Below, one piece after another: positions 26,437 through 59,749 of a stretch of 64,000 nucleotides of DNA. This DNA is from Patescibacteria group bacterium (GTDB lineage: Bacteria > Patescibacteriota > Patescibacteriia > JACQRZ01). The stretch's first letter is position 1, and every line of letters starts with the position of its first letter. The notes beneath the pieces are model-generated. The model was not told the DNA's origin. It made no database searches and saw only the letters and a list, made by a program, of their open reading frames with translations. Position numbers and translations under genes: made by a program. The stretch lies in the NCBI GenBank assembly GCA_038065125.1, contig JBBTRP010000006.1:172-64171 (forward strand). Reading direction: 5' to 3'.

Positions 26437-26438
26437 AG

Positions 26439-27143: not shown

Positions 27144-27152
27144 CAATTTAAT

Positions 27153-36625: not shown

Positions 36626-36681
36626 TGGGTCAACCCATTGACGAGAAAGGTCTTGCCTGGAATACTATCTTCACTGTACGA

Positions 36682-38404: not shown

Positions 38405-39007
38405 ATGACGGACGTTAATGTATTTATCGAGACCTTTACGCATAAAGTCACTACTGCGCTTTGCTCTGTTTCAGTCGAGCAGATAAAATCGGCAATTGCA
38501 GCCCTTCGAGCGTGTTGCACTCGTTCGGGTCGCGTGTATGTTTTCGGAAACGGTGGTTCCTATGCAATGGCAGGGCATTGGTCAAGCGACTTGAATAAAG
38601 CAATTCTGTATAGGAGGGGCCGCAAGCGAACACAGAGTGATTTCTGTGTCGTTCGCTTGCCGATGAGTGACGCCGAATTAACCGCATGGGCAAACGACAG
38701 TGGCTATGATAGTGTATTTGCGGGTCCCCTGATGCATCTTGTCCGACCCGCCGATCTTGTAATTGCTCTTTCATGTTCCGGAAACTCTCTCAATGTTCTC
38801 AATGCTGTCAATGTCGCGAAACAGCTGGCCGTTCCCGTCATCGGATTCACTGGCTTTGATGGCGGAGAGCTTAAAAAAATTTCTGATATTTCAATTCATG
38901 TGCAGACAGAAAAGTCGGAGTATGCTGCGGTTGAAAGCGTTCACGCGACAGTCCTGAATCTCTTAACTGACTTCTTCAACACGAACGACAGTACGCTTGC
39001 GATATGA
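38405..39007 (+). CDS. gmhA: phosphoheptose (sedoheptulose-7-phosphate) isomerase, SIS domain
   Basis: GNGGS, ANDSGYDSVF, SCSGNSLNV, GFTGFDGG match GmhA signatures. Confidence 0.85.
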   Translation: MTDVNVFIETFTHKVTTALCSVSVEQIKSAIAALRACCTRSGRVYVFGNGGSYAMAGHWSSDLNKAILYRRGRKRTQSDFCVVRLPMSDAELTAWANDSGYDSVFAGPLMHLVRPADLVIALSCSGNSLNVLNAVNVAKQLAVPVIGFTGFDGGELKKISDISIHVQTEKSEYAAVESVHATVLNLLTDFFNTNDSTLAI

Positions 39008-47625: not shown

Positions 47626-48813
47626 ATGGAATCAACTCCGTTGCGCTATCACCTCGCAAAAGACACAATCGATCGAAGCGATATCGACGCTCTTATTGAG
47701 TGGCTCAAAGGATATCCGCGATTGACAAAGTCAACCCTCACGACCGAGTTTGAAAAAAAATGGTCAGAGTGGCTAGGCATGGATTTCTCCGTTTTTTGCA
47801 ACTCTGGATCTTCGGCGAATCTATTGATGTTTGCCGCGCTCCTGGAGTCAAAGCGTCTTGCAAATAAGAAGGTGATCGTGCCGTCAGTTGGTTGGGGAAC
47901 CACAATTGCGCCTGCTATGCAGCTGGGATTTGAACCAATCATGTGTGAAGCGGATTCTGAAACCTTCGGCCTCGACCTCGATCATCTACGTATTCTACTT
48001 GAAAAGCATCATCCATCGACAGTCATTATGGTGCAAGTATTGGGGGTTCCCCATAAGATGGACGAACTCCTTTCTCTAAAGGAGCAATATGGCTTTATTT
48101 TACTTGAAGATGCCTGTGCAGCAATGGGTGCGTCGTATAAGGGAAAGCATGTTGGCACGTTCGGAGACATGGCGAGTTTTTCCCTCTACTTCGGTCACCA
48201 GATATCGACAATCGAGGGTGGACTTGTATCGACTAATGACCCCAAGTTCCGTGATCTACTCCTTATGCTAAGAAGTCATGGGTGGGGCAAGGACCTGGAC
48301 GAAGAAACGCATAACGCATTTGTAGACAAACACGCGATCGATGATTTCCACAAACCATTCGTTTTTTACATCCCGGGATACAATGTGCGATCAACAGACT
48401 TGAACGCATTTTTGGGTATCCGCCAGATCGATAAGATGGAGCGACTCATCAAGTCTCGATCAGAAAATCATAGTCGCTACACGCAGCTGCTCGGATCGTT
48501 TTTCCAGTGCCAAAAAGCACCCGACCAGTCGGTTGTGTGTAGTATCCATTTCGGCGCACTTGCACATAGTCGAGAGCAGCGGAAAGCAATCGTCTCAGCG
48601 TTATTGGAGAACGGCATCGAAACACGCATATTTTCTGCAGGCAACCTCGGCCTTCATCCGTTTTGGACGAGAAGCTATGGAGAGACATCGTTCCCTGTTG
48701 CCGATCGCATTCACCACGCCGGTTTTTTTCTGCCCAATCATCCGTCCTTAGGGGAGAAAGACATCGAGTTTATCGTGCGAGTTGTGCTTCAAGCCGCTTC
48801 TGTCACCAGCTAA
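47626..48813 (+). CDS. PMP-dependent NDP-4-keto-6-deoxyhexose 3-dehydrase (E1/DdhC- or ColD-like; DegT fold with Lys replaced by His)
   Basis: DegT/DnrJ/EryC1 fold. The Schiff-base Lys position reads SLYFGHQISTIEGG (His), as in E1 and ColD. Confidence 0.75.
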   Translation: MESTPLRYHLAKDTIDRSDIDALIEWLKGYPRLTKSTLTTEFEKKWSEWLGMDFSVFCNSGSSANLLMFAALLESKRLANKKVIVPSVGWGTTIAPAMQLGFEPIMCEADSETFGLDLDHLRILLEKHHPSTVIMVQVLGVPHKMDELLSLKEQYGFILLEDACAAMGASYKGKHVGTFGDMASFSLYFGHQISTIEGGLVSTNDPKFRDLLLMLRSHGWGKDLDEETHNAFVDKHAIDDFHKPFVFYIPGYNVRSTDLNAFLGIRQIDKMERLIKSRSENHSRYTQLLGSFFQCQKAPDQSVVCSIHFGALAHSREQRKAIVSALLENGIETRIFSAGNLGLHPFWTRSYGETSFPVADRIHHAGFFLPNHPSLGEKDIEFIVRVVLQAASVTS

Positions 48814-48814
48814 T

Positions 48815-49750
48815 ATGGCAAAAGTTTGCGTTACCGGCGGAGCAGGGTACATCGGATCAATGCTTGTGCCAGAACTCCTTAGGCGCGGGCATGAGGTCGT
48901 CGTCGTTGATAATTTTATGTATCGACAAACATCCTTGCTTGAGTGTGTGCACGACCCCACGCTCAACCTTGTACGAGGCGACGCCCGTAACCGACAGACC
49001 ATACAACGTGCCGTGAAGGGTTGCGATGTTATCATTCCGCTTGCGTGTATTGTCGGCGCCCCTGCATGCGATAAAGACTCTCAGCTTGCGCGTTCGACAA
49101 ACCTCGATGCCATACTTCTCCTTTTGGAACTTCGCGATCAAGGCCAGCGAATTATTTTTCCGAACACTAATAGCGGGTATGGTATTGGGCAGGACGGTAT
49201 GTTTTGCACAGAGGAGAGTCCTCTCAATCCAGTTTCGCTCTATGGACAGCTAAAGGTAGAGGCGGAAAAGCGACTGCTCGAGGCGGGCAACGCCATTACA
49301 TTTCGACTTGCAACAGTATTCGGTATTAGCCCACGCATGCGGTTAGACCTTTTGGTAAATGACTTCGTCTACCGCGCGGTCTTTGATCGCTTCGTAGTCC
49401 TCTTTGAGCCTCATTTTAAGCGTAACTACATTCATGTTCGCGATGTTGTTTCTGCGTTCTTGCACGCGATTGATCATTTTGATGAGATGAAGGATACGAC
49501 CTATAATGTCGGTCTTTCTAATGCTAATTTATCAAAGCATGAACTCTGTCAGGAAATTCAAAAAATTCTTCCATCTTTTGTTTTTCAGGAGGCGTCGATC
49601 GGGGAAGACCCAGACAAACGAAACTATGTTGTCAGTAATGAAAAAATAGAAGCAACCGGCTACCGCCCACAAGTGTCGTTGCGGCAGGGAATCGAGGAGC
49701 TGGTTAAGGGGTATCAGGTCATTCCACCGCATCACTACTCCAACCGGTAG
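48815..49750 (+). CDS. NAD(P)-dependent sugar-nucleotide reductase/epimerase (CDP-abequose/paratose-synthase or ColC-like SDR)
   Basis: MAKVCVTGGAGYIGS. YGQLKVEAE. Lies immediately downstream of the 3-dehydrase. Confidence 0.7.
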   Translation: MAKVCVTGGAGYIGSMLVPELLRRGHEVVVVDNFMYRQTSLLECVHDPTLNLVRGDARNRQTIQRAVKGCDVIIPLACIVGAPACDKDSQLARSTNLDAILLLLELRDQGQRIIFPNTNSGYGIGQDGMFCTEESPLNPVSLYGQLKVEAEKRLLEAGNAITFRLATVFGISPRMRLDLLVNDFVYRAVFDRFVVLFEPHFKRNYIHVRDVVSAFLHAIDHFDEMKDTTYNVGLSNANLSKHELCQEIQKILPSFVFQEASIGEDPDKRNYVVSNEKIEATGYRPQVSLRQGIEELVKGYQVIPPHHYSNR

Positions 49751-49754
49751 TTCT

Positions 49755-50753
49755 ATGGGACGCACCTTTCAAAAAGTGCTCGTTACGGGCGCGAGTGGTT
49801 CTGGTGGAAGTTATCTCGTTGACTACATAGCAGCGAATCATCCCCATGTTGAAATTCACGGCGCTACGCGTTGGCACAGCACGACTACAGGAGCCAACCT
49901 TTCACGCTCGCGCGACAAGGTCAAACTCCACGAGTGTGATTTGTGTGATTTAAGTTCCGTCGTCCGAGTGCTCAGCGAGGTCAAGCCAGACGCGATTTTT
50001 CATCTTGCAGCATACGCAAACGTCCGAGCATCGTTTCAAACTCCGCTCACGGTCATTGAGAACAATGTGATGGGAACGGCAAACCTCCTCGAGGCTATGC
50101 GCCTAACGGGGTGTGATGCGGTACTGCAACTGGCCAGTACGTCAGAAGTGTACGGACAGGTTGACCCCAGTGACGTACCCATTAAGGAAGACTGTCCAAT
50201 CCGGCCCTCGAGCCCCTATGCAGTCTCGAAAACGACACAAGATTTGCTTGGTGGAGTGTATTTTAGAAGTTACGGTATGAAGATTGTACGTACACGGATG
50301 TTTGCGTACATCAATCCGCGAAGAGAAGATCTATTCGCGACCTCTTTTGCAAAACAAGTCGCACTTATCGAGACCGGGATGCAGACAGAACTTTTGCATG
50401 GCAACCTGGACTCGACCCGAACCCTTCTTGACGTACGTGATGCGATGGAATCTTACTGGGTTGCGACATCGCTTTGCGAGTTCGGCGAGATATACAATAT
50501 CGGCGGGGAGACCGTGATTACGGTCGGGGAGTTTTTAGAGCTCCTAAAGAAAAACTCTACCGTTACCATACAGTCGCGCGTCAATCCAGACCTTCTCAGA
50601 CCATCGGATGTGACCTTGCAAATACCCGATACATCGAAGTTTTTTAAGGCTACCGGATGGCGCCCTAAGTACTCCTTTGAGGAGAGCGTGCTTTTTCTTT
50701 TAAATTACTGGCGCGAGCGCATTCGTGCGGGTAATCTAACAAAATTGATATGA
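49755..50753 (+). CDS. NAD-dependent epimerase/dehydratase (extended SDR)
   Basis: VLVTGASGSGGSYL. YAVSKTTQD. Confidence 0.8.
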   Translation: MGRTFQKVLVTGASGSGGSYLVDYIAANHPHVEIHGATRWHSTTTGANLSRSRDKVKLHECDLCDLSSVVRVLSEVKPDAIFHLAAYANVRASFQTPLTVIENNVMGTANLLEAMRLTGCDAVLQLASTSEVYGQVDPSDVPIKEDCPIRPSSPYAVSKTTQDLLGGVYFRSYGMKIVRTRMFAYINPRREDLFATSFAKQVALIETGMQTELLHGNLDSTRTLLDVRDAMESYWVATSLCEFGEIYNIGGETVITVGEFLELLKKNSTVTIQSRVNPDLLRPSDVTLQIPDTSKFFKATGWRPKYSFEESVLFLLNYWRERIRAGNLTKLI

Positions 50754-51460
50754 AAGTCAGCTTATTCATACCGACACTAAATGAGATTGAGGGCGTCAAG
50801 GCGATCATGCCGCGCGTTAAGCGCGAGTGGTTCGATGAAGTTATTATTGTGGACGGAAATTCAACGGACGGGACACGGGAGTATCTTGAATCTCTCGGGT
50901 ATAGTGTATTGTCCCAAACAGTTCCGAACCTGATGGGCGCATGGTGGCAGGGATTCCAGGCTGCAACAGGAGATGTGATTGTTCTCTTCAGTCCGGATGG
51001 AAACTCTATTCCAGAGCTCCTTCCAGCACTCATTAAAAAAATGCGGGAGGGCTATGATATGGTGACCGTTTCCCGCTATAAAGATGACGCAAAAAGCGAA
51101 GATGACGATTTACTAAGCAAGCTTGGTAACGGTTTTTTTACGGGTATGATTAATTTGCTTTTCCGTTCACATTATACCGACGTTCTTGTCATCTTTCGGG
51201 GATTCAAAAAAGAGTTACTTACGTCTTTCCATCTTACTAAAGATTCCGGAGCTCAGTTCAACCCAACGAGGTTAGGAATTTATGAGCTTTTTCTATGTAT
51301 CGGCTGCGCAAAACAGAAAAAAAGGGTTGCTGAAATTGCTGGTGATGAGTTGCACAATATTGGACGAAATGAAAGTAGGGCGTTTAAAAATAATTATGCA
51401 AAAATCGCTGCCGCGTTCACCATGCTGTACCATATTGTGAGGGAACGGATTTCTTCTTGA
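50750..51460 (+). CDS. GT2 glycosyltransferase, polyprenyl-phosphate sugar synthase-like (DPM1/GtrB-like catalytic domain)
   Basis: VSLFIPTLNE..IIVDGNSTDGT..FSPDGN. Confidence 0.7.
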   Translation: MKVSLFIPTLNEIEGVKAIMPRVKREWFDEVIIVDGNSTDGTREYLESLGYSVLSQTVPNLMGAWWQGFQAATGDVIVLFSPDGNSIPELLPALIKKMREGYDMVTVSRYKDDAKSEDDDLLSKLGNGFFTGMINLLFRSHYTDVLVIFRGFKKELLTSFHLTKDSGAQFNPTRLGIYELFLCIGCAKQKKRVAEIAGDELHNIGRNESRAFKNNYAKIAAAFTMLYHIVRERISS

Positions 51461-51509: not shown

Positions 51510-52493
51510 CTAAGCAATCCTATTGCGCGGCGGTCCGCCTTCCAGTGTTCTTTTGACGTTTGTCGAAGCTTTTTTTCGCATTTCCTCCCACGACTGCTTA
51601 GAATAGTATGCGGAATGAGGAGTGATGATAATTCTGTCATGATAGGCAGATGACTCATTAGTCCACATGCGAAGAAGTTTATCAGAAAAATTCGGCGGCT
51701 CCTGCGGAAGAACATCAAAACCAACTCCTGCCAAGGTTCCGTTTTCAAGTGCGACGGCAATACTATCAAGACTTGCAATAACTTTACCTCGGGCGGTGTT
51801 AATAAGAATGGATCCATGGTTGAGTCGTGAGAGGATTTTCTCGTCGATCATACCCAGTGTCTCATCTGAGAGCGGGCAATGAATAGAAATGATAGTCGAA
51901 GAAGAAATAAGATCGCTGAGAGAATCGTATCGGACCATGTTTAGTATTTTCTCATAGCCTGGGGAGATAAAAGGGTCGTAGCAGCCGATCTGCATACCGA
52001 ATGCACTCATCCGTAGAGCTACAGCAGAGCCAATCCTGCCAGCGCCTATGATCCCAAGGCGGTGTTCGTTGAGGCGTCGTATGTCGGGTAAAGAGTTTTG
52101 GCTCCAGGCATGCGGCCCTTTTTTTGAAAAACGATCGTATTCAAGGATTTTTCTGGTTAACGTGAGTATCATCGCGCAGGCGGTATCGGCAACTTCGTGT
52201 ACACCATAGTCCGGTGTGTTGCACGTGATTATTCCCTTCGTGCTGGCATAGGTGTGGTCGATATTGTCAAATCCCACGCCATATCGCTGGATGATTTTGC
52301 ACTTTTTCAGTCTGTCGATCGTCCGAGCAGACACACGCGCGCCCCAGACAAGCAGGGCGTCTGCATCCGCAACTGCCTCTCCAAATAGAGACTCATCGCC
52401 TTTATTTAAGCATATGACCTCATACTCCTCGCCAAGGGTAGCCGTTTCAATATCGGGATTGACTACGTAGTCAGTTATCACGATTTTTTTCAT
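51510..52493 (-). CDS. D-isomer-specific 2-hydroxyacid dehydrogenase
   Basis: GIIGAGRIGSAV NAD motif. 2-Hacid_dh catalytic and NAD-binding order. Confidence 0.8.
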   Translation of the reverse strand: MKKIVITDYVVNPDIETATLGEEYEVICLNKGDESLFGEAVADADALLVWGARVSARTIDRLKKCKIIQRYGVGFDNIDHTYASTKGIITCNTPDYGVHEVADTACAMILTLTRKILEYDRFSKKGPHAWSQNSLPDIRRLNEHRLGIIGAGRIGSAVALRMSAFGMQIGCYDPFISPGYEKILNMVRYDSLSDLISSSTIISIHCPLSDETLGMIDEKILSRLNHGSILINTARGKVIASLDSIAVALENGTLAGVGFDVLPQEPPNFSDKLLRMWTNESSAYHDRIIITPHSAYYSKQSWEEMRKKASTNVKRTLEGGPPRNRIA

Positions 52494-53026
52494 ATCCCGC
52501 CGCCGAGAACCCGCAGGACGGCCACCATGAAAGCCGCCGTATCGCGAGGATGACGTGATGTAATTAGTGAGCCATCGATTATGGCCGGAGCATCTTCATA
52601 AAGCGCGCCGGCATTTAATAGATCTATTGCAATGGCTGGGTGACAGGTTGCTCGGCGTCCATCGAGTATTCCCGCCGAAATCAATACCTGTGGTCCATGG
52701 CAAATGGCCGCAACCATTTTCCCCTCGTCATGCAGCGTTTTAATGAGCGAGAGTGCTTGCGGAATACGTCGGACCCTGTCGGGAGCCTCAAAGCCACCGG
52801 CAATAATTACGCCATCATAATCGGCGGGTTGAAGGTAGGCAATATCTGACTGTGAGGCGTAAAACTCGACAAGACGACTTGCCGGATAGCCCAGTCGCCC
52901 TACTGCCGGCAATCCATTCGGGGTGGCAATAATCGGCTCGTACCCAGCCTCTTTCAACCGAATAATTGGATAGATAAGCTCCTCATCTTCAAAGCCATTT
53001 GCTGTAAGAAAGATGATTTTTTTCAT
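52490..53026 (-). CDS. DJ-1/PfpI family protein (glyoxalase III/protease-like)
   Basis: AAICHGPQVL nucleophile-elbow Cys. 178 aa. Confidence 0.8.
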   Translation of the reverse strand: MKKIIFLTANGFEDEELIYPIIRLKEAGYEPIIATPNGLPAVGRLGYPASRLVEFYASQSDIAYLQPADYDGVIIAGGFEAPDRVRRIPQALSLIKTLHDEGKMVAAICHGPQVLISAGILDGRRATCHPAIAIDLLNAGALYEDAPAIIDGSLITSRHPRDTAAFMVAVLRVLGGGI

Positions 53027-53115: not shown

Positions 53116-54027
53116 ATGAACGATACGGTTACAGTATATCAGTATATGGAAAATTTTGTCACAGGAATAAACACAGAGAACGCCACATCACAGTCGCTCG
53201 AGTGCTGGCGAAAAATGTGTGTTGCCCGGACCTTTGAACTGAATGTCAAAAAGGCTTTTGATGCCAAAGCGATTCGCTGCCCCATTTATCTTTCTCTTGG
53301 ACAGGAGTCAATCCCTGCAGCGGTCTCAACCCTCTATAAGAACCCGGCAATTTTTGCTCAACACCGCGCGCATTCGACATATCTTTCATTCGGAGGAGAT
53401 CCTGAAACACTCATTGATGAGCTGCTTCTTAAGCCAACCGGGTGTAGTGGAGGGATGGGGGGGTCAGCATCGATTCAGGACAAATCCATCTCAATGTTTG
53501 GCCATACGGGATTCATTGGAGATCAAATTCCCATATCGGTTGGTTTCGCGCTTGGAGCAGCACGTAACGTGTTAACGATATTTGGAGACGCTGCAGCAGA
53601 GGAGGATTATGCGGCATCATCAATCGGGTATGCTGCGCATAAGAAGCTTCCGATTCTTTTTGTGTGCGAGGATAATAATCTGTCCATCTTAACAGAAGTA
53701 AAGGTTCGCAGGAGCTGGAAAATTGTGGATGTCGCTCGAGCGATGGGTGTTGCAGCCGAAGACATATCGGATGATCCGTGGGAAATCATGCAGTCGGTGA
53801 GCGAGATGATCGGCCACCTCCCGGCACTTCTCAACATTCATACCATTAGACATCTATGGCATTCAGGTACCGGTATTGATGGCGCTCCCGCCTATGATCG
53901 TTTCCTTCTCACGCGTGAAAAATTATCTTCCATGGGTTTGTCATCCGAAGTGGCAGCCATAGAAGACGAAGCCGCGAAACGCATGGAGAATCTGTGGCAA
54001 ACAAAAGTGTATCAACGAGTGAGCTAA
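53116..54027 (+). CDS. ThDP-dependent dehydrogenase E1 component alpha-subunit homolog
   Basis: ThDP-binding GDAA..EDNN motif (IFGDAAAEEDY..LFVCEDNNLSI). Confidence 0.8.
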   Translation: MNDTVTVYQYMENFVTGINTENATSQSLECWRKMCVARTFELNVKKAFDAKAIRCPIYLSLGQESIPAAVSTLYKNPAIFAQHRAHSTYLSFGGDPETLIDELLLKPTGCSGGMGGSASIQDKSISMFGHTGFIGDQIPISVGFALGAARNVLTIFGDAAAEEDYAASSIGYAAHKKLPILFVCEDNNLSILTEVKVRRSWKIVDVARAMGVAAEDISDDPWEIMQSVSEMIGHLPALLNIHTIRHLWHSGTGIDGAPAYDRFLLTREKLSSMGLSSEVAAIEDEAAKRMENLWQTKVYQRVS

Positions 54028-54049
54028 TCAAGAAACAAGTTACGCATTC

Positions 54050-54958
54050 ATGACGGTAGCAGAAACAATCAGTGAGCTTACGAGGGAGCATCTCCAAAAG
54101 AATAATGGCCTTGCCCTGGGGCAGTGTCTCACCGCGGTAGGCTGGGTCGGTGGAACTGTGCCGCAGATGCGAGAGGAGGATGGCCTTGTCGAGCTACCGG
54201 CGACAGATGTTGCCGGAAGTGGCTTTGCGGTTGGCGTTGCACTTGCTGGTAGACGCCCGATATATATCGTTCGGTATCAGGGATTCCAGTGGTATAACGC
54301 AGTCTCTGTAGTTAATTATGCCGCTAAATCAAAGCACATTTGGGGGAGGCCGTGCCCGGTATTTGTTCGATCGATCGCTATGGACGGGGGTATAGGACCG
54401 GTAGCAAGTGGTAGCCACCATAGCATGTTCACACGCATGCCGGGTATACCCGTTGTCGCGCCGATGACTCCGAACGAGTATCGGGCAATTTGGCATCATT
54501 TTCTCTCGCACGATGACCCGATGTACGTGAGTGAGCACAGACGAAGCTTTTCGATTGACTACGAGATGCAAGACAGTATAGGAGAGGCAGATGTAACCCT
54601 ATTTGCCATTTCATCAACGAGACTCAATGCACTCCAGGCAAAAAAAATACTTGAAGAGCAGCATATTCCTTGTAACATTATTCATCTACTCTGGCTGAAG
54701 CCATTCATCGTTGAACAACGCATGCTCTCTGCACTAAACCTCTCGCGGTTTGGCGGATTGGTGATTGATGGAGATTTTGAAAACGGTGTACTTAAACATG
54801 TCGCTTATGACCTTATGCGTAGTTCAAAAGCTGAGATCGAGGTTCTCGGTCTTGAAGATCGCGTAGCGGGTTTTGCACCCGAGCTTGATAACCTTCCTCC
54901 TTCGCCTGATCGAATAGTGGCAAAGGTTATCGATATTATAAACAAGAAGCGGGCATGA
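54050..54958 (+). CDS. ThDP-dependent dehydrogenase E1 component beta-subunit homolog
   Basis: Transketolase-like pyrimidine-binding domain (ELPATDVAGSGFAVGVALAGRRP) plus C-terminal domain. Confidence 0.8.
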   Translation: MTVAETISELTREHLQKNNGLALGQCLTAVGWVGGTVPQMREEDGLVELPATDVAGSGFAVGVALAGRRPIYIVRYQGFQWYNAVSVVNYAAKSKHIWGRPCPVFVRSIAMDGGIGPVASGSHHSMFTRMPGIPVVAPMTPNEYRAIWHHFLSHDDPMYVSEHRRSFSIDYEMQDSIGEADVTLFAISSTRLNALQAKKILEEQHIPCNIIHLLWLKPFIVEQRMLSALNLSRFGGLVIDGDFENGVLKHVAYDLMRSSKAEIEVLGLEDRVAGFAPELDNLPPSPDRIVAKVIDIINKKRA

Positions 54959-55704
54959 TCATTTCCATTATTCCGACCAAGGAAGACATTGAGGCGATTG
55001 CTGACCTTCCTCACGACCCGTCAATTGAGGAAGATGATCTATTTGACTACTCAAGCGTTGTTATAGACAAGCCGTGGGGGTTTGAGTATTCGATTTATAA
55101 AAATGATATGCTCGATGTATGGCTTCTGCGACTGGAGTCCAGCCAGCAGACATCACTGCACTGCCACCCGGGCAAGGATACGTCGCTTATTGCGCTCTCG
55201 GGTAGACTTTCGGTATCAACTCTTACCTCGACACACTGCATTTCATCCGGAGACACCCTACGTATTGCCCGCGGCGCATTCCACTCCACACTCTGTCTCT
55301 CAAATGGTGGTGCGCTAGTGTTGGAGTGTGAAACTCCCGCGAATAAAAAAAACCTTGTGAGGTATAACGATCGGTATGGTAGGCGCGGTAAACGGTATGA
55401 AAGTGGACATTTTGTACAACCGAGAAACGCTGCTCTCCATCCATGTTTTTACTCGTCGGCGATGGATGATATTCACCAGTTCGGCGACTGGAGATGCAAA
55501 CGTGTTGTTTTGTCTGACTCGCAAGCGAAAGACGCGATTCTTGACAGTGTTTCCGAGGGGAGCGCACTTATTTTGCAAGGAAGTATTTATTGCGGCAAGA
55601 GTCGCGATGTGAATTCGCCTGGCAGCGTTGTAATCCTCAATCAGCTCAAAGATGGGTACTCCTTGGCAGGTTCGACCTGCGACCTGCTCCTTCTCTATCG
55701 CTAA
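54955..55704 (+). CDS. cupin-domain protein
   Basis: IDKPWGFE..LHCHPGKDTSLIALSG cupin motifs. Confidence 0.6.
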   Translation: MIISIIPTKEDIEAIADLPHDPSIEEDDLFDYSSVVIDKPWGFEYSIYKNDMLDVWLLRLESSQQTSLHCHPGKDTSLIALSGRLSVSTLTSTHCISSGDTLRIARGAFHSTLCLSNGGALVLECETPANKKNLVRYNDRYGRRGKRYESGHFVQPRNAALHPCFYSSAMDDIHQFGDWRCKRVVLSDSQAKDAILDSVSEGSALILQGSIYCGKSRDVNSPGSVVILNQLKDGYSLAGSTCDLLLLYR

Positions 55705-55705: not shown

Positions 55706-56401
55706 ATGCCTCGGCGTTACGAAAGTCGTAATTTTCAATCTATTCTCTTTGACTTTGACGGAGTGCTTGGCGACACGATGGAAGATCACTTCCGAGCATG
55801 GAGATCCGCCCTGGCCTTTGTTGGTATCATCCTCAAGCGAGAAGCTTTTTTTCCGCTTGAGGGAATGAGTGTATATGATACCGTTGAGCACTTTTGCAAA
55901 CTTTTTAACATTCCGGCCTCTCGCGCAGACGAGATATTAAACAAGAAGATCGAGCACTATCTCAAACACCACTCATTTGTATTCTTTCCTTTTGTTGAGG
56001 AGTTCATAGATTCTCTTCGGCTGAAAAACATATCCTTTGCTTTGGTGACTGCGGGTATGCGAAACCGTCTTAACGCAACCGTGCCGTTGGATTTCTTGGC
56101 GAAGTTCCCCGTTATTATTACTGGTGAGCGGGGTGTACGCATGAAACCATGTCCCGACCCATACTTGGCGGCAGCCCAAGAGCTTGGGGTCGATCCCCGT
56201 GAATCAATCGTTGTGGAAAATGCGCCACTCGGAGTGCAGGCCGCAAAAGCCGCCGGTTGTTTTTGCATAGCCCTCGAAACCAGTGTATCAAAGGAGTATC
56301 TCACTCAGGCAGATGAAACATACCCATCATTTCTCGATATGCAAAAATCTTTAGCAATCCAAAACCTTACTATTAGTACCATATGCCTACAAAAAAAATA
56401 G
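55706..56401 (+). CDS. HAD-IA hydrolase (beta-phosphoglucomutase/phosphatase-like)
   Basis: ILFDFDGVLGDT motif I, taken from the internal ATG just after the cupin stop. Confidence 0.75.
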   Translation: MPRRYESRNFQSILFDFDGVLGDTMEDHFRAWRSALAFVGIILKREAFFPLEGMSVYDTVEHFCKLFNIPASRADEILNKKIEHYLKHHSFVFFPFVEEFIDSLRLKNISFALVTAGMRNRLNATVPLDFLAKFPVIITGERGVRMKPCPDPYLAAAQELGVDPRESIVVENAPLGVQAAKAAGCFCIALETSVSKEYLTQADETYPSFLDMQKSLAIQNLTISTICLQKK

Positions 56402-57336
56402 TTATCACGGGCGCAGACGGGTTCATAGGTCGAAACCTCTTCGACTTTTTTGCATCACATAAGGAGTATGATGTTTGGGGGACGTATCACCTCAAAAAAT
56501 CATTCGATCATCCTAATCTTATTCAGGCTGATTTGATGCGTCGTGAGGATGTATCACGCATCTGTACGGGCGCAGACATCATTGTCCACGCCGCAGCAGT
56601 TACCTCCGGGGCGAAGAATATAGTATCGCGACCCTATATTTATGTGACAGACAATACAATCATGAACACCCTCCTGTTTCAGGAGGTATATGACAGATCA
56701 ATTTCACGATTCATTTTTTTTAGTTGCTCCGTAATGTACCCGATGGATCGTACTGTTCCCGTGAAGGAAGAAGACGTCGATCTTGAGAACGGCATCCATC
56801 GAGCGTACTTCGGCGGTGCTTGGATGAAGGTGTACGCAGAAAAAATTTGTGAGTTTTATTCGCGATTAGGACGCACGTCGTTTACGGTGATTCGACATTC
56901 GAACATCTACGGCCCTCATGACACTTTTGACCAAGATAAAGCGCATGTGTTTGCCGCAACGATTCTTAAAGTGATGAACGGCAAGGACTCAATCACCGTG
57001 TGGGGAGACGGGTCGGAGCGGCGAGATCTTCTCTATATCGACGACCTCATTCGTTTCGTCGGTCTTGCTCTCGCAAAACAGAAATCTCCGTATGAGCTAG
57101 TTAATGTCGGGGTTGGCCGCGCAGTGTCAGTTGCAGAGCTCGTATCAAGAATTGTCACACATTCCGGCAAGAAACTACAGATACATTTTGATCCATCGAA
57201 ACCGACAATTCCGAGCAGGCTCGCGCTTGATTACTCAAAAGCCCGCGAGCTGTTCAATTGGGAGCCAAGCACAACACTGGATGATGGCATTAAAAAAACT
57301 CTTGACTGGTACGGTCGTCAGTCTTTGGCGACCTGA
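56383..57336 (+). CDS. NAD-dependent epimerase/dehydratase (extended SDR)
   Basis: IVITGADGFIGRNL. YAEKICE-region YxxxK. Confidence 0.8.
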   Translation: MPTKKIVITGADGFIGRNLFDFFASHKEYDVWGTYHLKKSFDHPNLIQADLMRREDVSRICTGADIIVHAAAVTSGAKNIVSRPYIYVTDNTIMNTLLFQEVYDRSISRFIFFSCSVMYPMDRTVPVKEEDVDLENGIHRAYFGGAWMKVYAEKICEFYSRLGRTSFTVIRHSNIYGPHDTFDQDKAHVFAATILKVMNGKDSITVWGDGSERRDLLYIDDLIRFVGLALAKQKSPYELVNVGVGRAVSVAELVSRIVTHSGKKLQIHFDPSKPTIPSRLALDYSKARELFNWEPSTTLDDGIKKTLDWYGRQSLAT

Positions 57337-58349
57337 ACCGAATCACGAAAGACATTATATTTTGTGTCAGACGCGGTACGGTGAGCAAGAAACCATTTGA
57401 CGGTTTCGCGGATTCCGTCCTCAAGCGCAACGCGGGGTGCGTAGCCGATGGATTTTGCACGCTCTATATCCATAATTCGGATTGCGTCGCCGCTCTTTTT
57501 TGAACTATCCCACACAACGTTTGGCGGCTGTGGAAATGCTGCGCAGATTGCGTCGACGAGCTGTCGAATACTCACTCCTGTTCCCGAGCCAAGGTTGATC
57601 GGACGACCATCCGCATGTTCCATTGCAAGGAGCATTCCATGCGCGACGTCTTGCGAATGGACAAAGTCACGGATTTCCGAACCGTCGCCCCAGACAGTGA
57701 GCGGGTTTTCGCCATCCGCAATTCTTCGAATGAGCGAAGGGATCACCATGGCATTAGCTGGGTCAAAATTATCAAAAGGCCCATAGGTGTTTGCCGGGCG
57801 AACGATCGCGATTTTCGTCCAGCCATATTCGATCGCGTACGCTTCTGCCTGCAACTCTCCCATGCGCTTTGCCCATCCGCCGAACCAGTCGAGCCTCGAG
57901 GGCATTGTCTTCCAAACATCATCTTCAAAAAACCGCTGAGCAGGTCCATAGACGCCGAGGGTGCTTGTGTAGAGATAACGCTTTACACCAGAGACTCGTG
58001 CAGCTTCCATCATGTTGGTGTTGAATAAGATGCCGGGCACGAAAATACTCGCGGGACGCGACAGTGTCGTGCCGGCGCCGACTTTTATTCCGGCGAGATG
58101 GAAGACGAACTCAATTCCCTCACACGCCTTTAGACAGTTCTGATACTGCATGAGGTTCAGCTTGATGCATTCGACGCCCTCGGGCATTCCCTTCTGCTCA
58201 TCAAGCGAAACGACGCGGACGCGTGCACCTAGGTCAACTAATTGAGAGACGAGCTGTCTTCCAATCATTCCAGTGCCGCCAGTTACAAGAATACTCTTGT
58301 TCAAATAGATACTTTTGTCCATGTGCTTACTATTTTTGTGATGTTTCAC
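57318..58349 (-). CDS. NAD-dependent epimerase/dehydratase (extended SDR)
   Basis: ILVTGGTGMIGRQL. Start may be the internal Met at 58322. Confidence 0.8.
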   Translation of the reverse strand: MKHHKNSKHMDKSIYLNKSILVTGGTGMIGRQLVSQLVDLGARVRVVSLDEQKGMPEGVECIKLNLMQYQNCLKACEGIEFVFHLAGIKVGAGTTLSRPASIFVPGILFNTNMMEAARVSGVKRYLYTSTLGVYGPAQRFFEDDVWKTMPSRLDWFGGWAKRMGELQAEAYAIEYGWTKIAIVRPANTYGPFDNFDPANAMVIPSLIRRIADGENPLTVWGDGSEIRDFVHSQDVAHGMLLAMEHADGRPINLGSGTGVSIRQLVDAICAAFPQPPNVVWDSSKKSGDAIRIMDIERAKSIGYAPRVALEDGIRETVKWFLAHRTASDTKYNVFRDSVQVAKD

Positions 58350-58480: not shown

Positions 58481-59749
58481 ATGAATAGGAAGAATCTTCC
58501 CACTCTGTATGTGGAGAGCGGAGCTTCTCTGGTAGTCCACAACCGCATCTCTGACAGCGAATTTGCGGCTGCTCAAGACAGGCTGCCTATTCCGTCGACC
58601 GATATTGTCGTGATCAACCTTCAACGAAGAACACTGTATCTCGCTCGGCGGAGTTCTGCACCGGCTGCCGGCCAGTACTGGTGGTTCGGCGGCGCTATGG
58701 TAAAGAGTGAGACCGACCTCCAGGCGGCGCAAAATCGTTTCAGGGACGAAGCAGGGCTCTATCTACCCGAGAACCGTTTTGAATTTGTACGAGCATTCGA
58801 CAATATTTGGGCGGATCGCTGTCAGGAGCCATGCCGCAATGGTGTCCACTTCAAAACTCGTCTCTTCACTGTCGACTTACGGCCAGACGAGCTGGAGGCC
58901 GTACAAAGAAAGGTTGATGACGAGGAGGTTCACTTTTCGTCTCCACTCATGGAGTGTGACCGAAGTGAACTGAACTGGCGGCACCATGCCGGCCAAATCC
59001 CTTCCACGGTTCTTGACGCATATGACGCGATCTTTGCTCCGCAGCAGTTCGCGACCAAGGAGGAATGGTTCGAGCTCCTCATACGCATCTATGGCGACTC
59101 CGTGTCTGCCGTGTATGTCGATGCGGGAAATCGAATCACCTACATCTTCGGTCAAACTAAAGACAACCAGGGGGAGGTCCTCGATGCAGTTTCCGGGCCG
59201 ATGCCTAGTCGCCCAGTTTCTAGACTGATCGCGATCCCGACACTGGAGGCTGGATACGGTTTTCCCGGATACGCCGCATGGAGAAAAGATCTTCTTGAAC
59301 GGGGATTCGATGAGCAGAACATCATCGGCATCGACGAGGCTATAGACCTCGTGCAGCCCTGCACTTCCGCGGAAGCTCTCGGGCTTGTCCGGTGGTTGCA
59401 GGGTCACCCCGAGGTGACGGTCGTTTATATCGTGGCGACGCGGTTGCATATGGCGCGGGTTTTCATTACAACTGTCAGTGCGCTCTATCGCTTGGGCATG
59501 ACACAAGTGAAGGTGTATGCGGCGCCGACGGATGCAGCGTCATGGTGCGAGCACGTCACCCACTCGCAAGGGGTTGAAACCGGCATGCGGCTCGACCTTC
59601 TGCAAGGAGAGCTGGTCCGGATCGAGCGGTACTACGAAAAGTCCGCGAGAGACCCTGATGTTGTCGGGCTGGTGTCTGCCCGCAAGGTACTTGATTATCT
59701 TAACGCTCGCAGCACTCTCGAAACCGTGGTGGAATCAAGCACTCTGTAA
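58481..59749 (+). CDS. Nudix-like hydrolase domain fused to DUF218/YdcF-like domain (hypothetical)
   Basis: Degenerate Nudix box GGAMVKSETDLQAAQNRFRDEAG. C-terminal YdcF-like segment (VVYIVATRLHMARVF). Confidence 0.55.
   Translation: MNRKNLPTLYVESGASLVVHNRISDSEFAAAQDRLPIPSTDIVVINLQRRTLYLARRSSAPAAGQYWWFGGAMVKSETDLQAAQNRFRDEAGLYLPENRFEFVRAFDNIWADRCQEPCRNGVHFKTRLFTVDLRPDELEAVQRKVDDEEVHFSSPLMECDRSELNWRHHAGQIPSTVLDAYDAIFAPQQFATKEEWFELLIRIYGDSVSAVYVDAGNRITYIFGQTKDNQGEVLDAVSGPMPSRPVSRLIAIPTLEAGYGFPGYAAWRKDLLERGFDEQNIIGIDEAIDLVQPCTSAEALGLVRWLQGHPEVTVVYIVATRLHMARVFITTVSALYRLGMTQVKVYAAPTDAASWCEHVTHSQGVETGMRLDLLQGELVRIERYYEKSARDPDVVGLVSARKVLDYLNARSTLETVVESSTL

What the first reader, a model, noticed from the sequence alone, without database searches (positions are those of the whole stretch)
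53116..54958. Orphan PDH-E1 alpha/beta-like ThDP enzyme pair inside a sugar-modification operon: candidate two-carbon branch-forming enzyme
The two genes encode homologs of the alpha and beta subunits of a 2-oxoacid dehydrogenase E1 (GDAA..EDNN ThDP motif; transketolase-like beta). No E2 acyltransferase or E3 lipoamide dehydrogenase is present anywhere in the window. The neighbours are a cupin, a HAD phosphatase, SDR sugar epimerase/reductases and glycosyltransferases, all co-directional and tightly spaced. By analogy with the AviB1/AviB2 pair of the avilamycin cluster, proposed to attach a C2 unit in eurekanate, and with the ThDP-dependent YerE step in yersiniose, this pair would most plausibly transfer an activated acetaldehyde from pyruvate onto a keto-sugar nucleotide. 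That would give a C-acetyl or C-(1-hydroxyethyl) branched sugar in a cell-surface glycan, which is rare outside antibiotic pathways.
Basis: partly seen in the sequence, partly recalled or inferred. Interest (0 to 1): 0.75.

Follow-up and report, generated by a model that had tools for sequence, protein, structure and literature searches.

The report
Orphan thiamine enzyme in heptose cassette
Two adjacent genes in a candidate-phyla-radiation bacterium encode a stand-alone, divergent thiamine-dependent E1 alpha/beta enzyme that sits in a widely shared sugar-nucleotide modification cassette and most likely joins a small carbon unit to a keto-sugar, which would give an unstudied kind of branched cell-surface sugar.

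Summary
ORFs 53116-54027 and 54050-54958 encode divergent E1 alpha and beta homologues with an intact ThDP-Mg motif. No E2 or E3 was found in the window, in the contig beyond it, or in 80 related genome loci.

The pair belongs to a discrete, uncharacterised family found in at least 320 GTDB species (CPR, DPANN, SAR11, Nitrospira, Omnitrophota and others) and in 95 IMG/VR contigs.

It always lies in a conserved sugar-nucleotide cassette. Window partners include:
- a Cj1427-like GDP-heptose C4-dehydrogenase (390 bits to PDB 6VO6)
- a 4,6-dehydratase
- a ColD-like 3-dehydratase, not an aminotransferase
- Fcl-like reductases

These enzymes make 4-keto-(3,6-di)deoxy sugars, the acceptor class that YerE uses. 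[quoted passage not shown]

Three things depart from the AviB1/B2 analogy:
- The cofactor-activating Glu of E1 beta is an invariant Asp.
- A type-II-PMI-like cupin is an obligate partner, fused to alpha in seven genome loci, together with a DJ-1/PfpI protein. An aminotransferase replaces both in other lineages.
- A second, Glu-bearing orphan E1 pair co-occurs in some loci.

Donor, acceptor and product are not shown. Relatedness to AviB1/B2 could not be tested.

The parts
53116..54027 (+). E1 alpha-like ThDP (PP-domain) subunit, short form (303 aa; a start at 53146 would give the 293 aa of NCBI's call)
   Evidence: PF00676 at E 5.4e-17. TIGR03182 scores 111.6 bits against a cut-off of 393.85. 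The GDAA...EDNN motif and the R245/H249/S250 loop are conserved. Identical protein P0001 from a Patescibacteria MAG.
54050..54958 (+). E1 beta-like (PYR + transketolase-C) subunit with Asp53 in place of the cofactor-activating Glu
   Evidence: PF02779 at E 6.1e-13 and PF02780 at E 1.6e-5. Gapless alignment to 1w85_B and 3exe_B puts Asp53 on the catalytic Glu. Asp is present in 77/77 family members. Adjacent to alpha in 76/77 genome loci and 79/80 IMG/VR loci.
54955..55704 (+). Type-II phosphomannose-isomerase-like cupin with a C-terminal beta domain; obligate partner of the E1 pair
   Evidence: PF01050 and PF07883 match in 12/13 family members. H69, H71, K74, H110, E124, E126, R136, D139 and R143 are invariant in 53 sequences. 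Fused to the N-terminus of alpha in 7 loci. AF2 model has pLDDT 89.5. Present in 36/52 full genome loci and 74/80 IMG/VR loci.
52490..53026 (-). DJ-1/PfpI family protein with an intact Cys-His nucleophile elbow, divergently transcribed from E1 alpha
   Evidence: PF01965 at E 1.2e-43. TIGR01382 scores 152 bits, above its cut-off of 139. AICHGP motif. The Cys is invariant in 49/49. Co-occurs with the cupin in 35/36 cupin-bearing loci.
55706..56401 (+). HAD-IA hydrolase, like beta-phosphoglucomutase or the BT2127 pyrophosphatase
   Evidence: PF13419 at E 6.3e-25. NF053653 inorganic diphosphatase scores 125 bits. PDB beta-PGM 82 bits and BT2127 67 bits. Within about 8 kb of E1 alpha in 19 of 77 genome loci, mostly CPR, DPANN and Omnitrophota.
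56383..57336 (+). Extended SDR like GDP-fucose synthase or GDP-mannose 3,5-epimerase; candidate C4 or side-chain reductase or epimerase
   Evidence: PF01370 at E 2.4e-46. PDB best hits are epimerases and GDP-L-fucose synthase at 93-97 bits. A relative lies within about 8 kb of E1 alpha in 27/77 loci.
57318..58349 (-). Second Fcl-like extended SDR (convergent)
   Evidence: PF01370 at E 1.5e-48. PDB GDP-L-fucose synthase 112 bits. A relative lies within about 8 kb of E1 alpha in 43/77 loci, often directly after E1 beta.
47626..48813 (+). ColD-like PLP/PMP-dependent sugar-nucleotide C3-dehydratase (not a plain aminotransferase)
   Evidence: PDB ColD/WbdK 2gms at 177.7 bits. His (GHQ) sits at the ColD His188 position where aminotransferases have Lys. 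RfbH is the best NCBIfam hit. A DegT-family relative is present in 31/77 genome loci and 65/80 IMG/VR loci.
48782..49750 (+). [quoted passage not shown]
   Evidence: 389.9 bits (E 6.6e-116) to PDB 6vo6/6vo8. That these entries are C. jejuni Cj1427 is from my own knowledge. The enzyme's function is described in PMC10680097. Strong orthologues occur in 23/52 full loci.
49755..50753 (+). NDP-sugar 4,6-dehydratase (Gmd/RmlB-like)
   Evidence: PF16363 at E 9.8e-69. TIGR01472 gmd scores 139.6 bits. Strong orthologues occur in 13/52 full loci.
50750..51460 (+). Small GT2, probably a polyprenyl-phosphate glycosyltransferase (AglJ/DPM-like)
   Evidence: PF00535 at E 3.6e-19. TIGR04182 AglJ scores 77 bits. 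Recurs next to the E1 pair in 13 loci.
51510..52493 (-). D-isomer 2-hydroxyacid dehydrogenase (PGDH/glycerate-DH-like); occasional accessory gene
   Evidence: PF02826 and PF00389. TIGR01327 scores 198.8 bits. Found next to DJ-1 and the cupin in only two other loci, L016 and L031.
58481..59749 (+). 422-aa protein with a weak N-terminal NUDIX domain (like GDP-mannose mannosyl hydrolase)
   Evidence: PF00293 at E 2.3e-4. PRK15434 scores 25 bits. NUDIX genes recur beside the E1 pair.
22890..23873 (+). HddA-like GHMP kinase (heptose 7-phosphate kinase), a distant supplier of the heptose nucleotide
   Evidence: NF049969 HddA scores 142.9 bits. 336 bits to the GHMP kinase cluster that accompanies the E1 pair in 38/77 loci.
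38405..39819 (+). GmhA-like SIS isomerase (38405-39007) plus sugar-1-phosphate nucleotidyltransferase (39004-39819)
   Evidence: PF13580 and PF00483. Phosphoheptose isomerase 94.9 bits; G1P cytidylyltransferase 255.8 bits.

Best explanation
The two genes form a stand-alone, probably alpha2beta2, ThDP enzyme. It does not feed a lipoyl-E2. Instead it acts as a carboligase inside a GDP-heptose or GDP-hexose tailoring pathway.

Proposed route (every step below is inferred; no activity has been measured):
1. A heptose nucleotide is made by the GmhA, HddA or HldE-kinase, GmhB and nucleotidyltransferase genes elsewhere in the window.
2. It is oxidised at C4 by the Cj1427-like enzyme (48782) and/or 4,6-dehydrated (49755), then 3-deoxygenated by the ColD-like enzyme (47626). 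This gives a 4-keto-(3,6-di)deoxy sugar nucleotide.
3. The E1 pair decarboxylates a 2-oxo acid. Pyruvate is the default guess; the donor is unknown.
4. It adds the resulting ThDP-bound acyl anion to the sugar carbonyl. The product would be a C-acyl-branched sugar with a tertiary alcohol.
5. The flanking Fcl-like SDRs (56383, 57318) reduce and/or epimerise it.
6. Glycosyltransferases put the sugar into a surface glycan.

The PMI-like cupin and the DJ-1 protein work directly with the E1. Either they condition the acceptor (an enediol-type keto-isomerisation) or they supply or clean up the donor. In other lineages a class I/II aminotransferase takes their place.

Shown: homology, absence of E2/E3, synteny, gene fusions and the Asp substitution. 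Inferred: every chemical step.
For: - E1 folds and the ThDP-Mg motif are present, but scores are far below the PDH cut-offs.
- No E2 or E3 in the window, in the flanks examined, or in 80 genome loci.
- The family is discrete. Full-length relatives score at least 128 bits, while canonical E1 beta proteins score about 70 bits. There are 73 clusters at E <= 1e-30 among 1.84 billion representatives.
- Synteny in genome loci: beta is adjacent to alpha in 76/77. Of 52 loci with at least 6 kb on both sides, 45 have a strong extended-SDR orthologue and 32 have a 4-keto generator.
- IMG/VR loci repeat the operon DJ1-cupin-E1a-E1b-ColD-SDR-SDR-4,6-dehydratase. A ColD-like gene is present in 65/80.
- w48782 scores 390 bits to 6VO6. 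w47626 is ColD-like with the His-for-Lys signature. Together with a 4,6-dehydratase, such enzymes make GDP-4-keto-3,6-dideoxyheptose in C. jejuni (PMC10680097). That is the same class of acceptor that YerE branches (PMC9306805).
- E1-type enzymes (the alpha-KADH2 group) that attach C2 branches to keto-sugars are established in antibiotic pathways. KbDH has been tested in vitro (PMC12247030).
- B12-radical-SAM methylases directly follow E1 beta in many of the 44/77 loci that carry one. This is compatible with further elaboration of a small alkyl branch.
Against: - There is no biochemical datum for any family member.
- Clustering with AviB1/B2, AlmDI/DII or KbDH was not testable.
- The catalytic Glu is Asp. 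Its consequences are unknown.
- The cupin partner is PMI-like. Such enzymes normally act on sugar phosphates, not on nucleotide sugars.
- DJ-1 and the HAD protein have no role in the simple model.
- 20 of 52 full loci show no strong 4-keto generator within 7 kb.
- Some loci also carry a second orphan E1 pair with the canonical Glu. That pair could be the real brancher.
- The mutually exclusive partner sets (cupin plus DJ-1 versus aminotransferase plus or minus an IPMS-like enzyme) suggest the donor is not simply pyruvate.
Confidence: 0.5

Rival explanations
1. Sugar-phosphate route. The E1 pair acts like DXS or transketolase before nucleotide activation. It joins a C2 unit from pyruvate or hydroxypyruvate to an aldose phosphate. 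The PMI-like cupin isomerises the resulting ketose phosphate to an aldose phosphate. The GHMP kinase, the HAD phosphatase and a nucleotidyltransferase then make an NDP-higher-sugar. This would parallel the transaldolase-initiated GDP-octose route of lincomycin.
For: - The cupin is homologous to type II phosphomannose isomerase and is fused to alpha in 7 loci.
- The HAD is like beta-PGM or a sugar phosphatase.
- A GHMP kinase is present in 38/77 loci and a nucleotidyltransferase in 23/77.
- The lincomycin cluster encodes a transaldolase (LmbR), isomerase (LmbN), kinase (LmbP), phosphatase (LmbK) and nucleotidyltransferase (LmbO) (PMC12945683). The order of those steps is from my own knowledge.
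Against: - The kinase and nucleotidyltransferase are equally frequent in cupin-less loci, which have no HAD either.
- The ordinary GDP-heptose pathway fully explains them. Its C4-dehydrogenase orthologue (390 bits to 6VO6) sits in the cassette.
- GmhA-type isomerases are also present.
- HAD was found in only 10/52 full loci.
Confidence: 0.12
2. Chain extension rather than branching. The acyl anion is added to an aldehyde, for example a C6 or C7 aldehyde of a sugar nucleotide. This gives a secondary acyloin, which the cupin then isomerises through an enediol. The product would be a terminally deoxy higher sugar.
For: - An aldose-ketose-type cupin can act only on a secondary acyloin, not on the tertiary alcohol that a ketone acceptor would give.
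- The cupin-alpha fusions imply consecutive steps.
Against: - No enzyme that would make a sugar aldehyde was identified.
- The cassette's conserved enzymes make C4 ketones.
Confidence: 0.1
3. The pair makes or degrades a small non-sugar metabolite. It might be a simple 2-oxoacid decarboxylase or an acetoin-type cleaving enzyme. The product would be used as a glycan decoration or as a co-substrate, for example linked to the 2-oxoglutarate/2-hydroxyglutarate cycling of the Cj1427-like enzyme. DJ-1 would detoxify dicarbonyl by-products.
For: - DJ-1/PfpI proteins are glyoxalase-type enzymes with an invariant Cys here.
- Cj1427-type enzymes need 2-oxoglutarate (PMC10680097).
- A 2-hydroxyacid dehydrogenase accompanies DJ-1 in the window and in two other loci.
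Against: - The tight and near-universal linkage to sugar-nucleotide SDRs and to ColD-like genes argues for a sugar substrate.
- The 2-hydroxyacid dehydrogenase is rare.
Confidence: 0.08
4. It is an ordinary PDH, acetoin or BCKDH E1 whose E2 and E3 partners are encoded elsewhere in the genome.
For: The nearest curated model is PDH E1 alpha (TIGR03182). Only one contig of the MAG was seen.
Against: - Scores are 3-5 fold below the cut-offs.
- No E2 or E3 in 80 genome loci. A canonical operon such as the C. difficile acetoin cluster keeps E2 and E3 adjacent.
- The family is discrete.
- There is a Glu-to-Asp change, and the beta 'QHSQ' His is absent at the aligned position.
- The pair always sits in glycan cassettes, in organisms as different as DPANN archaea and SAR11.
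Confidence: 0.03

Closest known systems
E1-type (alpha-KADH2) sugar C2-branching enzymes of antibiotic pathways: AlmDI/DII (aldgarose), AviB1/B2 (eurekanate), Pau11/Pau12 (paulomycose), KbDH-alpha/beta (kibdelomycin)
   Same: Both are an orphan two-subunit E1 without E2 or E3, encoded among deoxysugar-nucleotide genes, with a ketoreductase nearby. The expected chemistry is the same: a 2-oxoacid-derived acyl anion is added to a sugar ketone (PMC12247030; PMC4425429).
   Different: - The context is a surface-glycan island rather than an antibiotic cluster.
- The hosts are CPR, DPANN, SAR11 and Nitrospira rather than actinomycetes.
- Beta has Asp instead of the activating Glu.
- The subunits are short (about 295 and 305 aa).
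- There are obligate PMI-like cupin and DJ-1 partners.
- Sequence relatedness could not be tested because no reference sequences were reachable.
YerE/YerF (yersiniose A) and ErwE-type enzymes of LPS branched sugars
   Same: The pathway logic matches: 4,6-dehydratase plus 3-dehydratase give a 4-keto-3,6-dideoxy sugar nucleotide, a ThDP enzyme adds an acyl branch at C4, and a reductase follows. The product goes into a cell-surface glycan. Dedicated donor-supply enzymes can be clustered with them (PMC9306805).
   Different: YerE and ErwE are single-chain enzymes of the acetolactate-synthase or decarboxylase superfamily that act on CDP-sugars. Here the enzyme is a split E1 alpha/beta, probably acting on GDP-sugars.
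Canonical heterotetrameric E1 of PDH, acetoin or BCKDH complexes (e.g. PDB 1ni4, 1w85; C. difficile acetoin operon in L082)
   Same: The fold and domain order are the same. The ThDP-Mg motif and the alpha R-x-x-x-H-S loop are conserved.
   Different: - No E2 or E3.
- Far below the family cut-offs.
- Beta Glu is replaced by Asp, and beta His128 is not conserved at the aligned position.
- The alpha C-terminal part matches the profile only to position 230 of 300.
Campylobacter jejuni GDP-heptose tailoring toolkit (Cj1427 C4-dehydrogenase, 4,6-dehydratase, PLP C3-dehydratase, C4-reductases) and the colitose enzymes ColD/ColC
   Same: The window has close or clear homologues of each: 390 bits to 6VO6, 178 bits to ColD with its His signature, a Gmd-like dehydratase, and Fcl-like reductases.
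   Different: The paper on the C. jejuni toolkit mentions neither thiamine nor branching. The RmlC-type epimerase cupins of that toolkit differ from the PMI-like cupin here.
Azospirillum-type orphan E1 alpha/beta (A. lipoferum plasmid p6; second pairs in L005, L013, L031, L064-L069)
   Same: It is also an orphan E1 pair next to DegT and SDR genes in glycan loci.
   Different: It shares only about 30% identity. Beta is longer (about 350 aa). It keeps the canonical TPLSE Glu and the QHSQ His. It is a separate family that can co-occur with the window's family.

Membership tests
Canonical 2-oxoacid dehydrogenase complex E1 (PDH/BCKDH/acetoin) | E1_dh alpha fold plus Transket_pyr/Transketolase_C beta fold, with a ThDP-Mg motif | tested here: met
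   PF00676, PF02779 and PF02780 match. The motif GDAA...EDNN aligns with GDGA...ENN of human E1 alpha.
Canonical 2-oxoacid dehydrogenase complex E1 (PDH/BCKDH/acetoin) | Scores above the curated equivalog cut-offs | tested here: not met
   TIGR03182 scores 111.6 against 393.85. PRK09212 scores 60.4 against 321.
Canonical 2-oxoacid dehydrogenase complex E1 (PDH/BCKDH/acetoin) | Genomic and functional partnership with a lipoyl-E2 and an E3 | tested here: not met
   No E2 or E3 homologue in the window, the flanks examined or 80 genome loci. The rest of the MAG was not available.
Canonical 2-oxoacid dehydrogenase complex E1 (PDH/BCKDH/acetoin) | Cofactor-activating Glu in the beta PYR domain (TP-x-x-E) | tested here: not met
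   Asp53 aligns with that Glu without gaps. Asp is present in 77/77 members. Deeper relatives keep Glu.
E1-type sugar C2-branching enzymes (AviB1/B2, AlmDI/DII, Pau11/12, KbDH) | Orphan E1 alpha/beta inside a deoxysugar-nucleotide gene cluster that can make a 3- or 4-keto sugar | tested here: met
   Cj1427-like, 4,6-dehydratase and ColD-like genes lie within 6 kb. The synteny is conserved.
E1-type sugar C2-branching enzymes (AviB1/B2, AlmDI/DII, Pau11/12, KbDH) | Phylogenetic clustering with characterised members | not testable with these tools
   No reference sequence was reachable. The papers held carry none. The plasmid searches returned only other kinds of E1.
E1-type sugar C2-branching enzymes (AviB1/B2, AlmDI/DII, Pau11/12, KbDH) | Pyruvate-dependent carboligation onto a keto-sugar, giving a +C2 product | not testable with these tools
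   This needs an enzyme assay.
YerE-type ThDP branching enzymes | Single chain with TPP_enzyme_N/M/C architecture | tested here: not met
   The enzyme is two chains. Only a sub-threshold PF02775 match was seen on alpha (21.4 bits against 21.9).
Split transketolase / DXS | Transketolase_N PP domain | tested here: not met
   Alpha matches E1_dh, not Transketolase_N. The split transketolase 6yaj scores only E 0.074 against beta.
Type II phosphomannose isomerase (for the cupin partner) | PF01050 cupin with its conserved motifs | tested here: inconclusive
   PF01050 matches 12/13 members, best E 1.2e-8, but the window protein itself reaches only E 0.025. The metal site appears to be 3-His plus Lys74. 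The fold search gave only generic cupins.

The most novel reading that the evidence does not exclude
This would be a previously unrecognised family of E1-like ThDP carboligases that has three distinguishing features. First, it uses Asp instead of the near-universal cofactor-activating Glu. Second, it works as a unit with a PMI-like cupin (sometimes fused to alpha) and a DJ-1/PfpI protein. Third, it builds C-branched or chain-extended heptoses or hexoses for the surface glycans of SAR11, Nitrospira, CPR bacteria and DPANN archaea. If so, acyl-branched higher sugars would be a widespread, so far unseen component of environmental microbial envelopes.
Probability: 0.4. Interest if true: 0.8.

Novelty: new variant of a known kind. 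Interest (0 to 1): 0.62.

Why it matters
A 2025 review (PMC12247030) assigns E1-type sugar-branching enzymes mainly to antibiotic clusters and LPS branched sugars to YerE-like enzymes. It also notes that no structure exists for the E1 type.

If this family does the proposed chemistry, four things follow:
- E1-type branching would extend to cell-surface glycans of some of the most abundant and least cultivated lineages, and across the bacteria-archaea divide.
- It would point to unknown branched heptoses in their envelopes, which matters for phage and grazer recognition.
- It would offer new biocatalysts for chiral tertiary alcohols.
- It would provide a natural Glu-to-Asp variant for studying ThDP activation.

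The conserved eight-gene operon gives a directly testable in vitro pathway, because the upstream enzymes have characterised C. jejuni and E. coli counterparts.

Tried and rejected
1. Reference sequences for AviB1/B2 and KbDH.

2. tblastn against plasmids.
   - The window alpha found nothing above 35% identity.
   - The Azospirillum orphan alpha led to a Streptomyces griseofuscus pair next to a condensation-domain protein and an ACP. That is a different use of E1, not a sugar brancher.

3. Foldseek of a confident cupin model against the PDB. It returned only generic (bi)cupins with TM of 0.42 or less and gave no functional assignment.

4. Literature searches for E1 genes in O-antigen or capsule clusters. 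Nothing relevant turned up. A search for the PDB code 6VO6 gave only chance matches, so the identity of 6VO6 as Cj1427 rests on my own knowledge.

5. Phosphonate biosynthesis. I considered it because of the ThDP decarboxylase, cupin, B12-radical-SAM, PhyH-like and nucleotidyltransferase genes. I rejected it because none of the recurrent neighbour families I annotated looks like a PEP mutase.

6. A methionine-salvage-like HAD plus cupin route to a 2-oxo acid. I considered it but found no support for it.

7. The viral status of the IMG/VR contigs. The flanks of two loci hold only glycan genes, so it is left open.


Full report
**1. What is at the coordinates**

- ORF 53116-54027 (+, 303 aa) matches Pfam E1_dh at E 5.4e-17.
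- ORF 54050-54958 (+, 302 aa) matches Transket_pyr at E 6.1e-13 and Transketolase_C at E 1.6e-5.
- Alpha carries FGDAAAEEDY...VCEDNNLS. This aligns with GDGAANQG...CENNRYGM of human PDH E1 alpha.
- The loop R245-x-x-W-H249-S250 is invariant in 25 relatives. By my own reading (inference), it corresponds to the canonical R-x-x-x-H-S catalytic loop.
- Both proteins are divergent. TIGR03182 (PDH E1 alpha) scores 111.6 bits against a cut-off of 393.85. PRK09212 (E1 beta) scores 60.4 against 321.
- The best solved relatives score 64.7 and 47.8 bits.
- The identical alpha protein is on record from a 'Patescibacteria group bacterium' MAG, so the window is from a CPR bacterium.

**2. No E2 or E3**

- phmmer with the E2 and E3 of a canonical C. 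difficile acetoin operon (L082) found nothing in any window ORF or in the ORFs of 80 related genome loci. No positive control was run.
- Pfam annotation of most of the larger ORFs shows that from about 9 kb to the right end the window is one glycan island.
- A 99.9% identical contig extends beyond both ends and adds no E2 or E3. On the right it adds two Wzy_C proteins and a Bac_transf protein. At the left end it shows housekeeping genes, including topoisomerase I, SOD, AhpC and RelA, and reaches only about 1 kb past the window.
- In that other assembly alpha carries indels at 53351, 53887 and 53905-6. The contig name gives a coverage of 5.18, so assembly error is likely. The window copy is intact.

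**3. The pair belongs to a discrete, widespread, unnamed family**

- The word-indexed search found 2,948 relatives. The best are 53-69% identical and 290-310 aa long, and come from CPR, Nitrospirota and Elusimicrobia.
- A scan of one genome per GTDB species found relatives in 320 species. The best 80 are 42-57% identical. They include Saccharibacteria and other CPR, Woese-, Pace- and Nanoarchaeota, Omnitrophota, Nitrospira, Planctomycetota, Terriglobia, many Pelagibacteraceae, Thiothrix-labelled SAGs and Paramagnetospirillum.
- An exhaustive HMMER pass with beta over 1.84 billion representatives gave 73 clusters at E <= 1e-30. Full-length family members reach down to 32% identity (128 bits), whereas canonical E1 beta proteins start at about 70 bits.
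- Single-chain alpha-beta fusions exist: P0133 (628 aa) and P0139 (619 aa).
- 95 IMG/VR contigs also carry the family.

**4. A family signature: Asp for the activating Glu**

- In all four beta alignments to solved E1s, and in a MAFFT alignment with a canonical acetoin E1 beta and an Azospirillum orphan, the conserved 'TP-x-x-E' Glu aligns without gaps with Asp53 of the window beta ('ELPATD'). That this Glu protonates N1' of ThDP is established knowledge of ThDP enzymes.
- The spacing to the downstream G-x-R-P motif is the same, 17 residues.
- Asp is found in 77 of 77 family betas.
- More distant members at 32-37% identity (P0168, P0192, P0198, P0205) keep Glu, so the Asp arose within the clade.
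- The canonical beta 'QHSQ' His is also not conserved at the aligned position.
- I know of no other natural ThDP enzyme family with Asp here. This rests on my own knowledge and was not searched exhaustively.

**5. Conserved gene context**

I called ORFs in the 80 genome loci, matched them to the window proteins and clustered the remainder.

Counts within about 8 kb of alpha:

| Partner | Loci (of 77) |
|---|---|
| E1 beta next to alpha | 76 |
| DJ-1/PfpI | 48 |
| cupin (separate gene) | 45 |
| w57318-type SDR | 43 |
| w48782-type SDR | 31 |
| w47626-type 'DegT' | 31 |
| w56383-type SDR | 27 |
| 4,6-dehydratase | 23 |
| HAD | 19 |

Recurrent partners that lie outside the window's 44-64 kb stretch:

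| Partner | Loci (of 77) |
|---|---|
| B12-binding radical SAM enzyme, usually directly after beta | 44 |
| HddA-like GHMP kinase | 38 |
| classical SDR | 27 |
| nucleotidyltransferase | 23 |
| PhyH-like dioxygenase | 21 |
| class I/II aminotransferase | 14 |
| IPMS/HMGL-like enzyme | 8 |

- The window does encode an HddA-like kinase at 22890-23873 (336 bits to the cluster representative) and a weak nucleotidyltransferase match at 39004-39819. It has no match to the others.
- In seven loci the cupin is fused to the N-terminus of alpha (for example L020, 544 aa).
- Among 52 loci with at least 6 kb on both sides, cupin and DJ-1 co-occur in 35 of 36. The aminotransferase is found only in cupin-less loci (12 of 16, against 0 of 36).
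- There are therefore two architectures with alternative partner sets. The window has the first type: DJ1 (divergent), then E1a-E1b-cupin-HAD-SDR.
- The 80 IMG/VR loci repeat the operon DJ1-cupin-E1a-E1b-ColD-like-SDR-SDR-(PhyH)-4,6-dehydratase. Cupin is present in 74, DJ-1 in 74 and a ColD-like gene in 65.
- The flanks I checked there hold glycan genes, not phage genes. I do not claim these contigs are viral.

**6. What the neighbours are**

- w48782 scores 389.9 bits (E 6.6e-116) against PDB 6VO6/6VO8. From my own knowledge these entries are C. jejuni Cj1427. [quoted passage not shown]
- w47626 is not an ordinary aminotransferase. Its best solved relatives are ColD/WbdK (177.7 bits). It has His in 'GHQ' where ColD has His188 and aminotransferases have the PLP lysine. 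RfbH is its best NCBIfam match.
- w49755 is a Gmd/RmlB-type 4,6-dehydratase.
- w56383 and w57318 resemble GDP-fucose synthase and GDP-mannose 3,5-epimerase.
- In C. jejuni this toolkit (C4-dehydrogenase or 4,6-dehydratase, PLP C3-dehydratase, C4-reductases) makes GDP-4-keto-, 6-deoxy- and 3,6-dideoxy-heptoses.
- Elsewhere the window encodes GmhA-like, HldE-kinase-like, GmhB-like and HddA-like proteins, nucleotidyltransferases and a true Gmd.
- A 4-keto-3,6-dideoxy sugar nucleotide is the acceptor on which YerE builds the yersiniose branch (PMC9306805).

**7. The unexplained partners**

- The cupin family matches PF01050 (type II mannose-6-phosphate isomerase) in 12 of 13 members. Its motifs are KPWGxEY, TSLHCHPxK, FHS and ExETPxNKxDLVRxxDxYGR. 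H69, H71, H110, K74, E124, E126, R136, D139 and R143 are invariant.
- A confident model (pLDDT 89.5) found only generic cupins.
- DJ-1 has the AICHGP nucleophile elbow, with the Cys invariant in 49 of 49.
- The HAD is closest to beta-phosphoglucomutase and to the BT2127 pyrophosphatase.
- Cupin plus DJ-1 and the aminotransferase (with or without the IPMS-like enzyme) are mutually exclusive. I infer that both sets serve the same need of the E1. That need is either supply of a non-standard 2-oxoacid donor, as the aldolase ErwI does for ErwE, or conditioning of the acceptor or product. The data do not decide between these.

**8. Mechanism and rivals**

- Best reading (confidence about 0.5): a stand-alone ThDP carboligase adds a 2-oxoacid-derived acyl anion to the carbonyl of a GDP-4-keto-(deoxy)heptose or -hexose. 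SDR reduction follows. The result would be a C-acyl or C-hydroxyalkyl-branched surface sugar.
- Sugar-phosphate rival (0.12): the PMI-like cupin and the HAD favour it. However, the kinase and nucleotidyltransferase it relies on are explained by the ordinary GDP-heptose pathway and occur equally in cupin-less loci.
- Chain extension on a sugar aldehyde (0.10).
- A small-molecule role (0.08).
- A canonical E1 with distant E2 and E3 (0.03).

**9. Relation to what is known**

- E1-type (alpha-KADH2) enzymes that attach C2 branches to keto-sugars are established for aldgamycin, avilamycin, paulomycin, kosinostatin and kibdelomycin. KbDH has been tested in vitro, and about 120 clusters are known (PMC12247030; PMC4425429 and PMC4753412).
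- That review assigns LPS branched sugars to YerE-like enzymes and the E1 type mainly to antimicrobial natural products. It also states that no structure exists.
- The window pair works in the same kind of setting, but I could not test membership in that clade.
- It differs in the Asp, in the partner proteins and in its taxonomic and functional context.
- A separate orphan E1 family also sits in glycan loci, sometimes in the same locus as this one. It is Azospirillum-like, has a longer beta and keeps the canonical Glu. Assigning the branching role to either family remains open.

**10. Verdict**

The feature is real and non-canonical. It is a new variant of a known kind. Interest 0.62.

Noticed in passing
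window 9152-64000 (and beyond, L083): About 55 kb of a CPR contig is one continuous glycan-biosynthesis island. It holds at least 12 extended SDRs, at least 9 glycosyltransferases, Wzx, an AsnB-like amidotransferase, UDP-glucose dehydrogenase, Gmd, RmlD and heptose genes. Two Wzy_C proteins follow just past the window. That seems a large investment for an organism of a group usually reported to have small genomes.
   Followed up: partly
window 23873-30071: A run of genes comprising a DAO-type FAD oxidoreductase, an unknown 484-aa protein (minus strand), a HAD (PF12710), two SDRs and a UbiA prenyltransferase. It resembles a polyprenyl-phospho-sugar route (decaprenyl-phospho-arabinose-like). I did not analyse it.
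   Followed up: no
window 33452-34669 and 36625-37914: Two TylC3-type NDP-sugar C-methyltransferases (Methyltransf_13/14). The island probably also makes C-methyl-branched sugars, independently of the ThDP pair.
   Followed up: no
window 30020-31405: An HldE-type heptose-7-phosphate kinase domain (298 bits to rfaE_dom_I) is fused to a C-terminal Cupin_2 domain instead of the usual adenylyltransferase domain.
   Followed up: no
L005 1760-4985; L013 14790-17088; L031 11778-13781; L064/L066/L067 about 360-2360; L081 8962-10975: A second, unrelated-looking orphan E1 alpha/beta family also sits in glycan loci, sometimes in the same locus as the window-type pair. Its beta is about 350 aa and keeps the canonical TPLSE Glu and the QHSQ His. 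On the Azospirillum lipoferum plasmid p6 it lies next to DegT, SDR and HAD-IIIA genes.
   Followed up: partly
L071 11703-12851; L075; L080; L052: SAR11 loci carry, right after the E1 pair, a third split ThDP-like pair. It consists of an alpha-like ORF of about 200 aa and a 178-aa PYR-like ORF. It may be like sulfopyruvate or phosphonopyruvate decarboxylase.
   Followed up: no
L086-L165 (IMG/VR contigs): 95 contigs classified as viral in IMG/VR encode the same DJ1-cupin-E1a-E1b-ColD-SDR cassette. The flanks of two of them hold only glycan genes. Either large viruses carry this sugar pathway, or glycan islands are being misclassified as viral.
   Followed up: partly
L022, L023, L027-L029, L032, L035 (Nitrospira): Downstream of E1 beta, Nitrospira loci carry two or three consecutive B12-binding radical SAM genes. 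Most also have a multidomain protein of about 1,400 aa containing glycosyltransferase-like and methyltransferase-like stretches. This suggests iterative C-methylation of the product.
   Followed up: no
L034, L040, L041, L049 (DPANN archaea): A fusion protein of about 710 aa whose sequence reads as nucleotidyltransferase, CBS and GHMP-kinase parts in that order (by eye; not scanned against Pfam). It lies beside the cassette and may be a single-polypeptide sugar-activation module.
   Followed up: no
window 53351, 53887, 53905-53906 versus L083: A 99.9% identical assembly (ENA ERZ2470813 NODE_123, coverage 5.18 in the contig name) has four single-base deletions inside E1 alpha, which truncate the called gene to 189 aa. 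This is probably assembly error but could be population-level inactivation.
   Followed up: partly
L166 12016-17546 (Streptomyces griseofuscus pSGRIFU1): An orphan E1 alpha/beta pair sits next to a condensation-domain protein, an ACP and ketosynthases. This is yet another non-complex use of E1, probably priming an acyl carrier.
   Followed up: no
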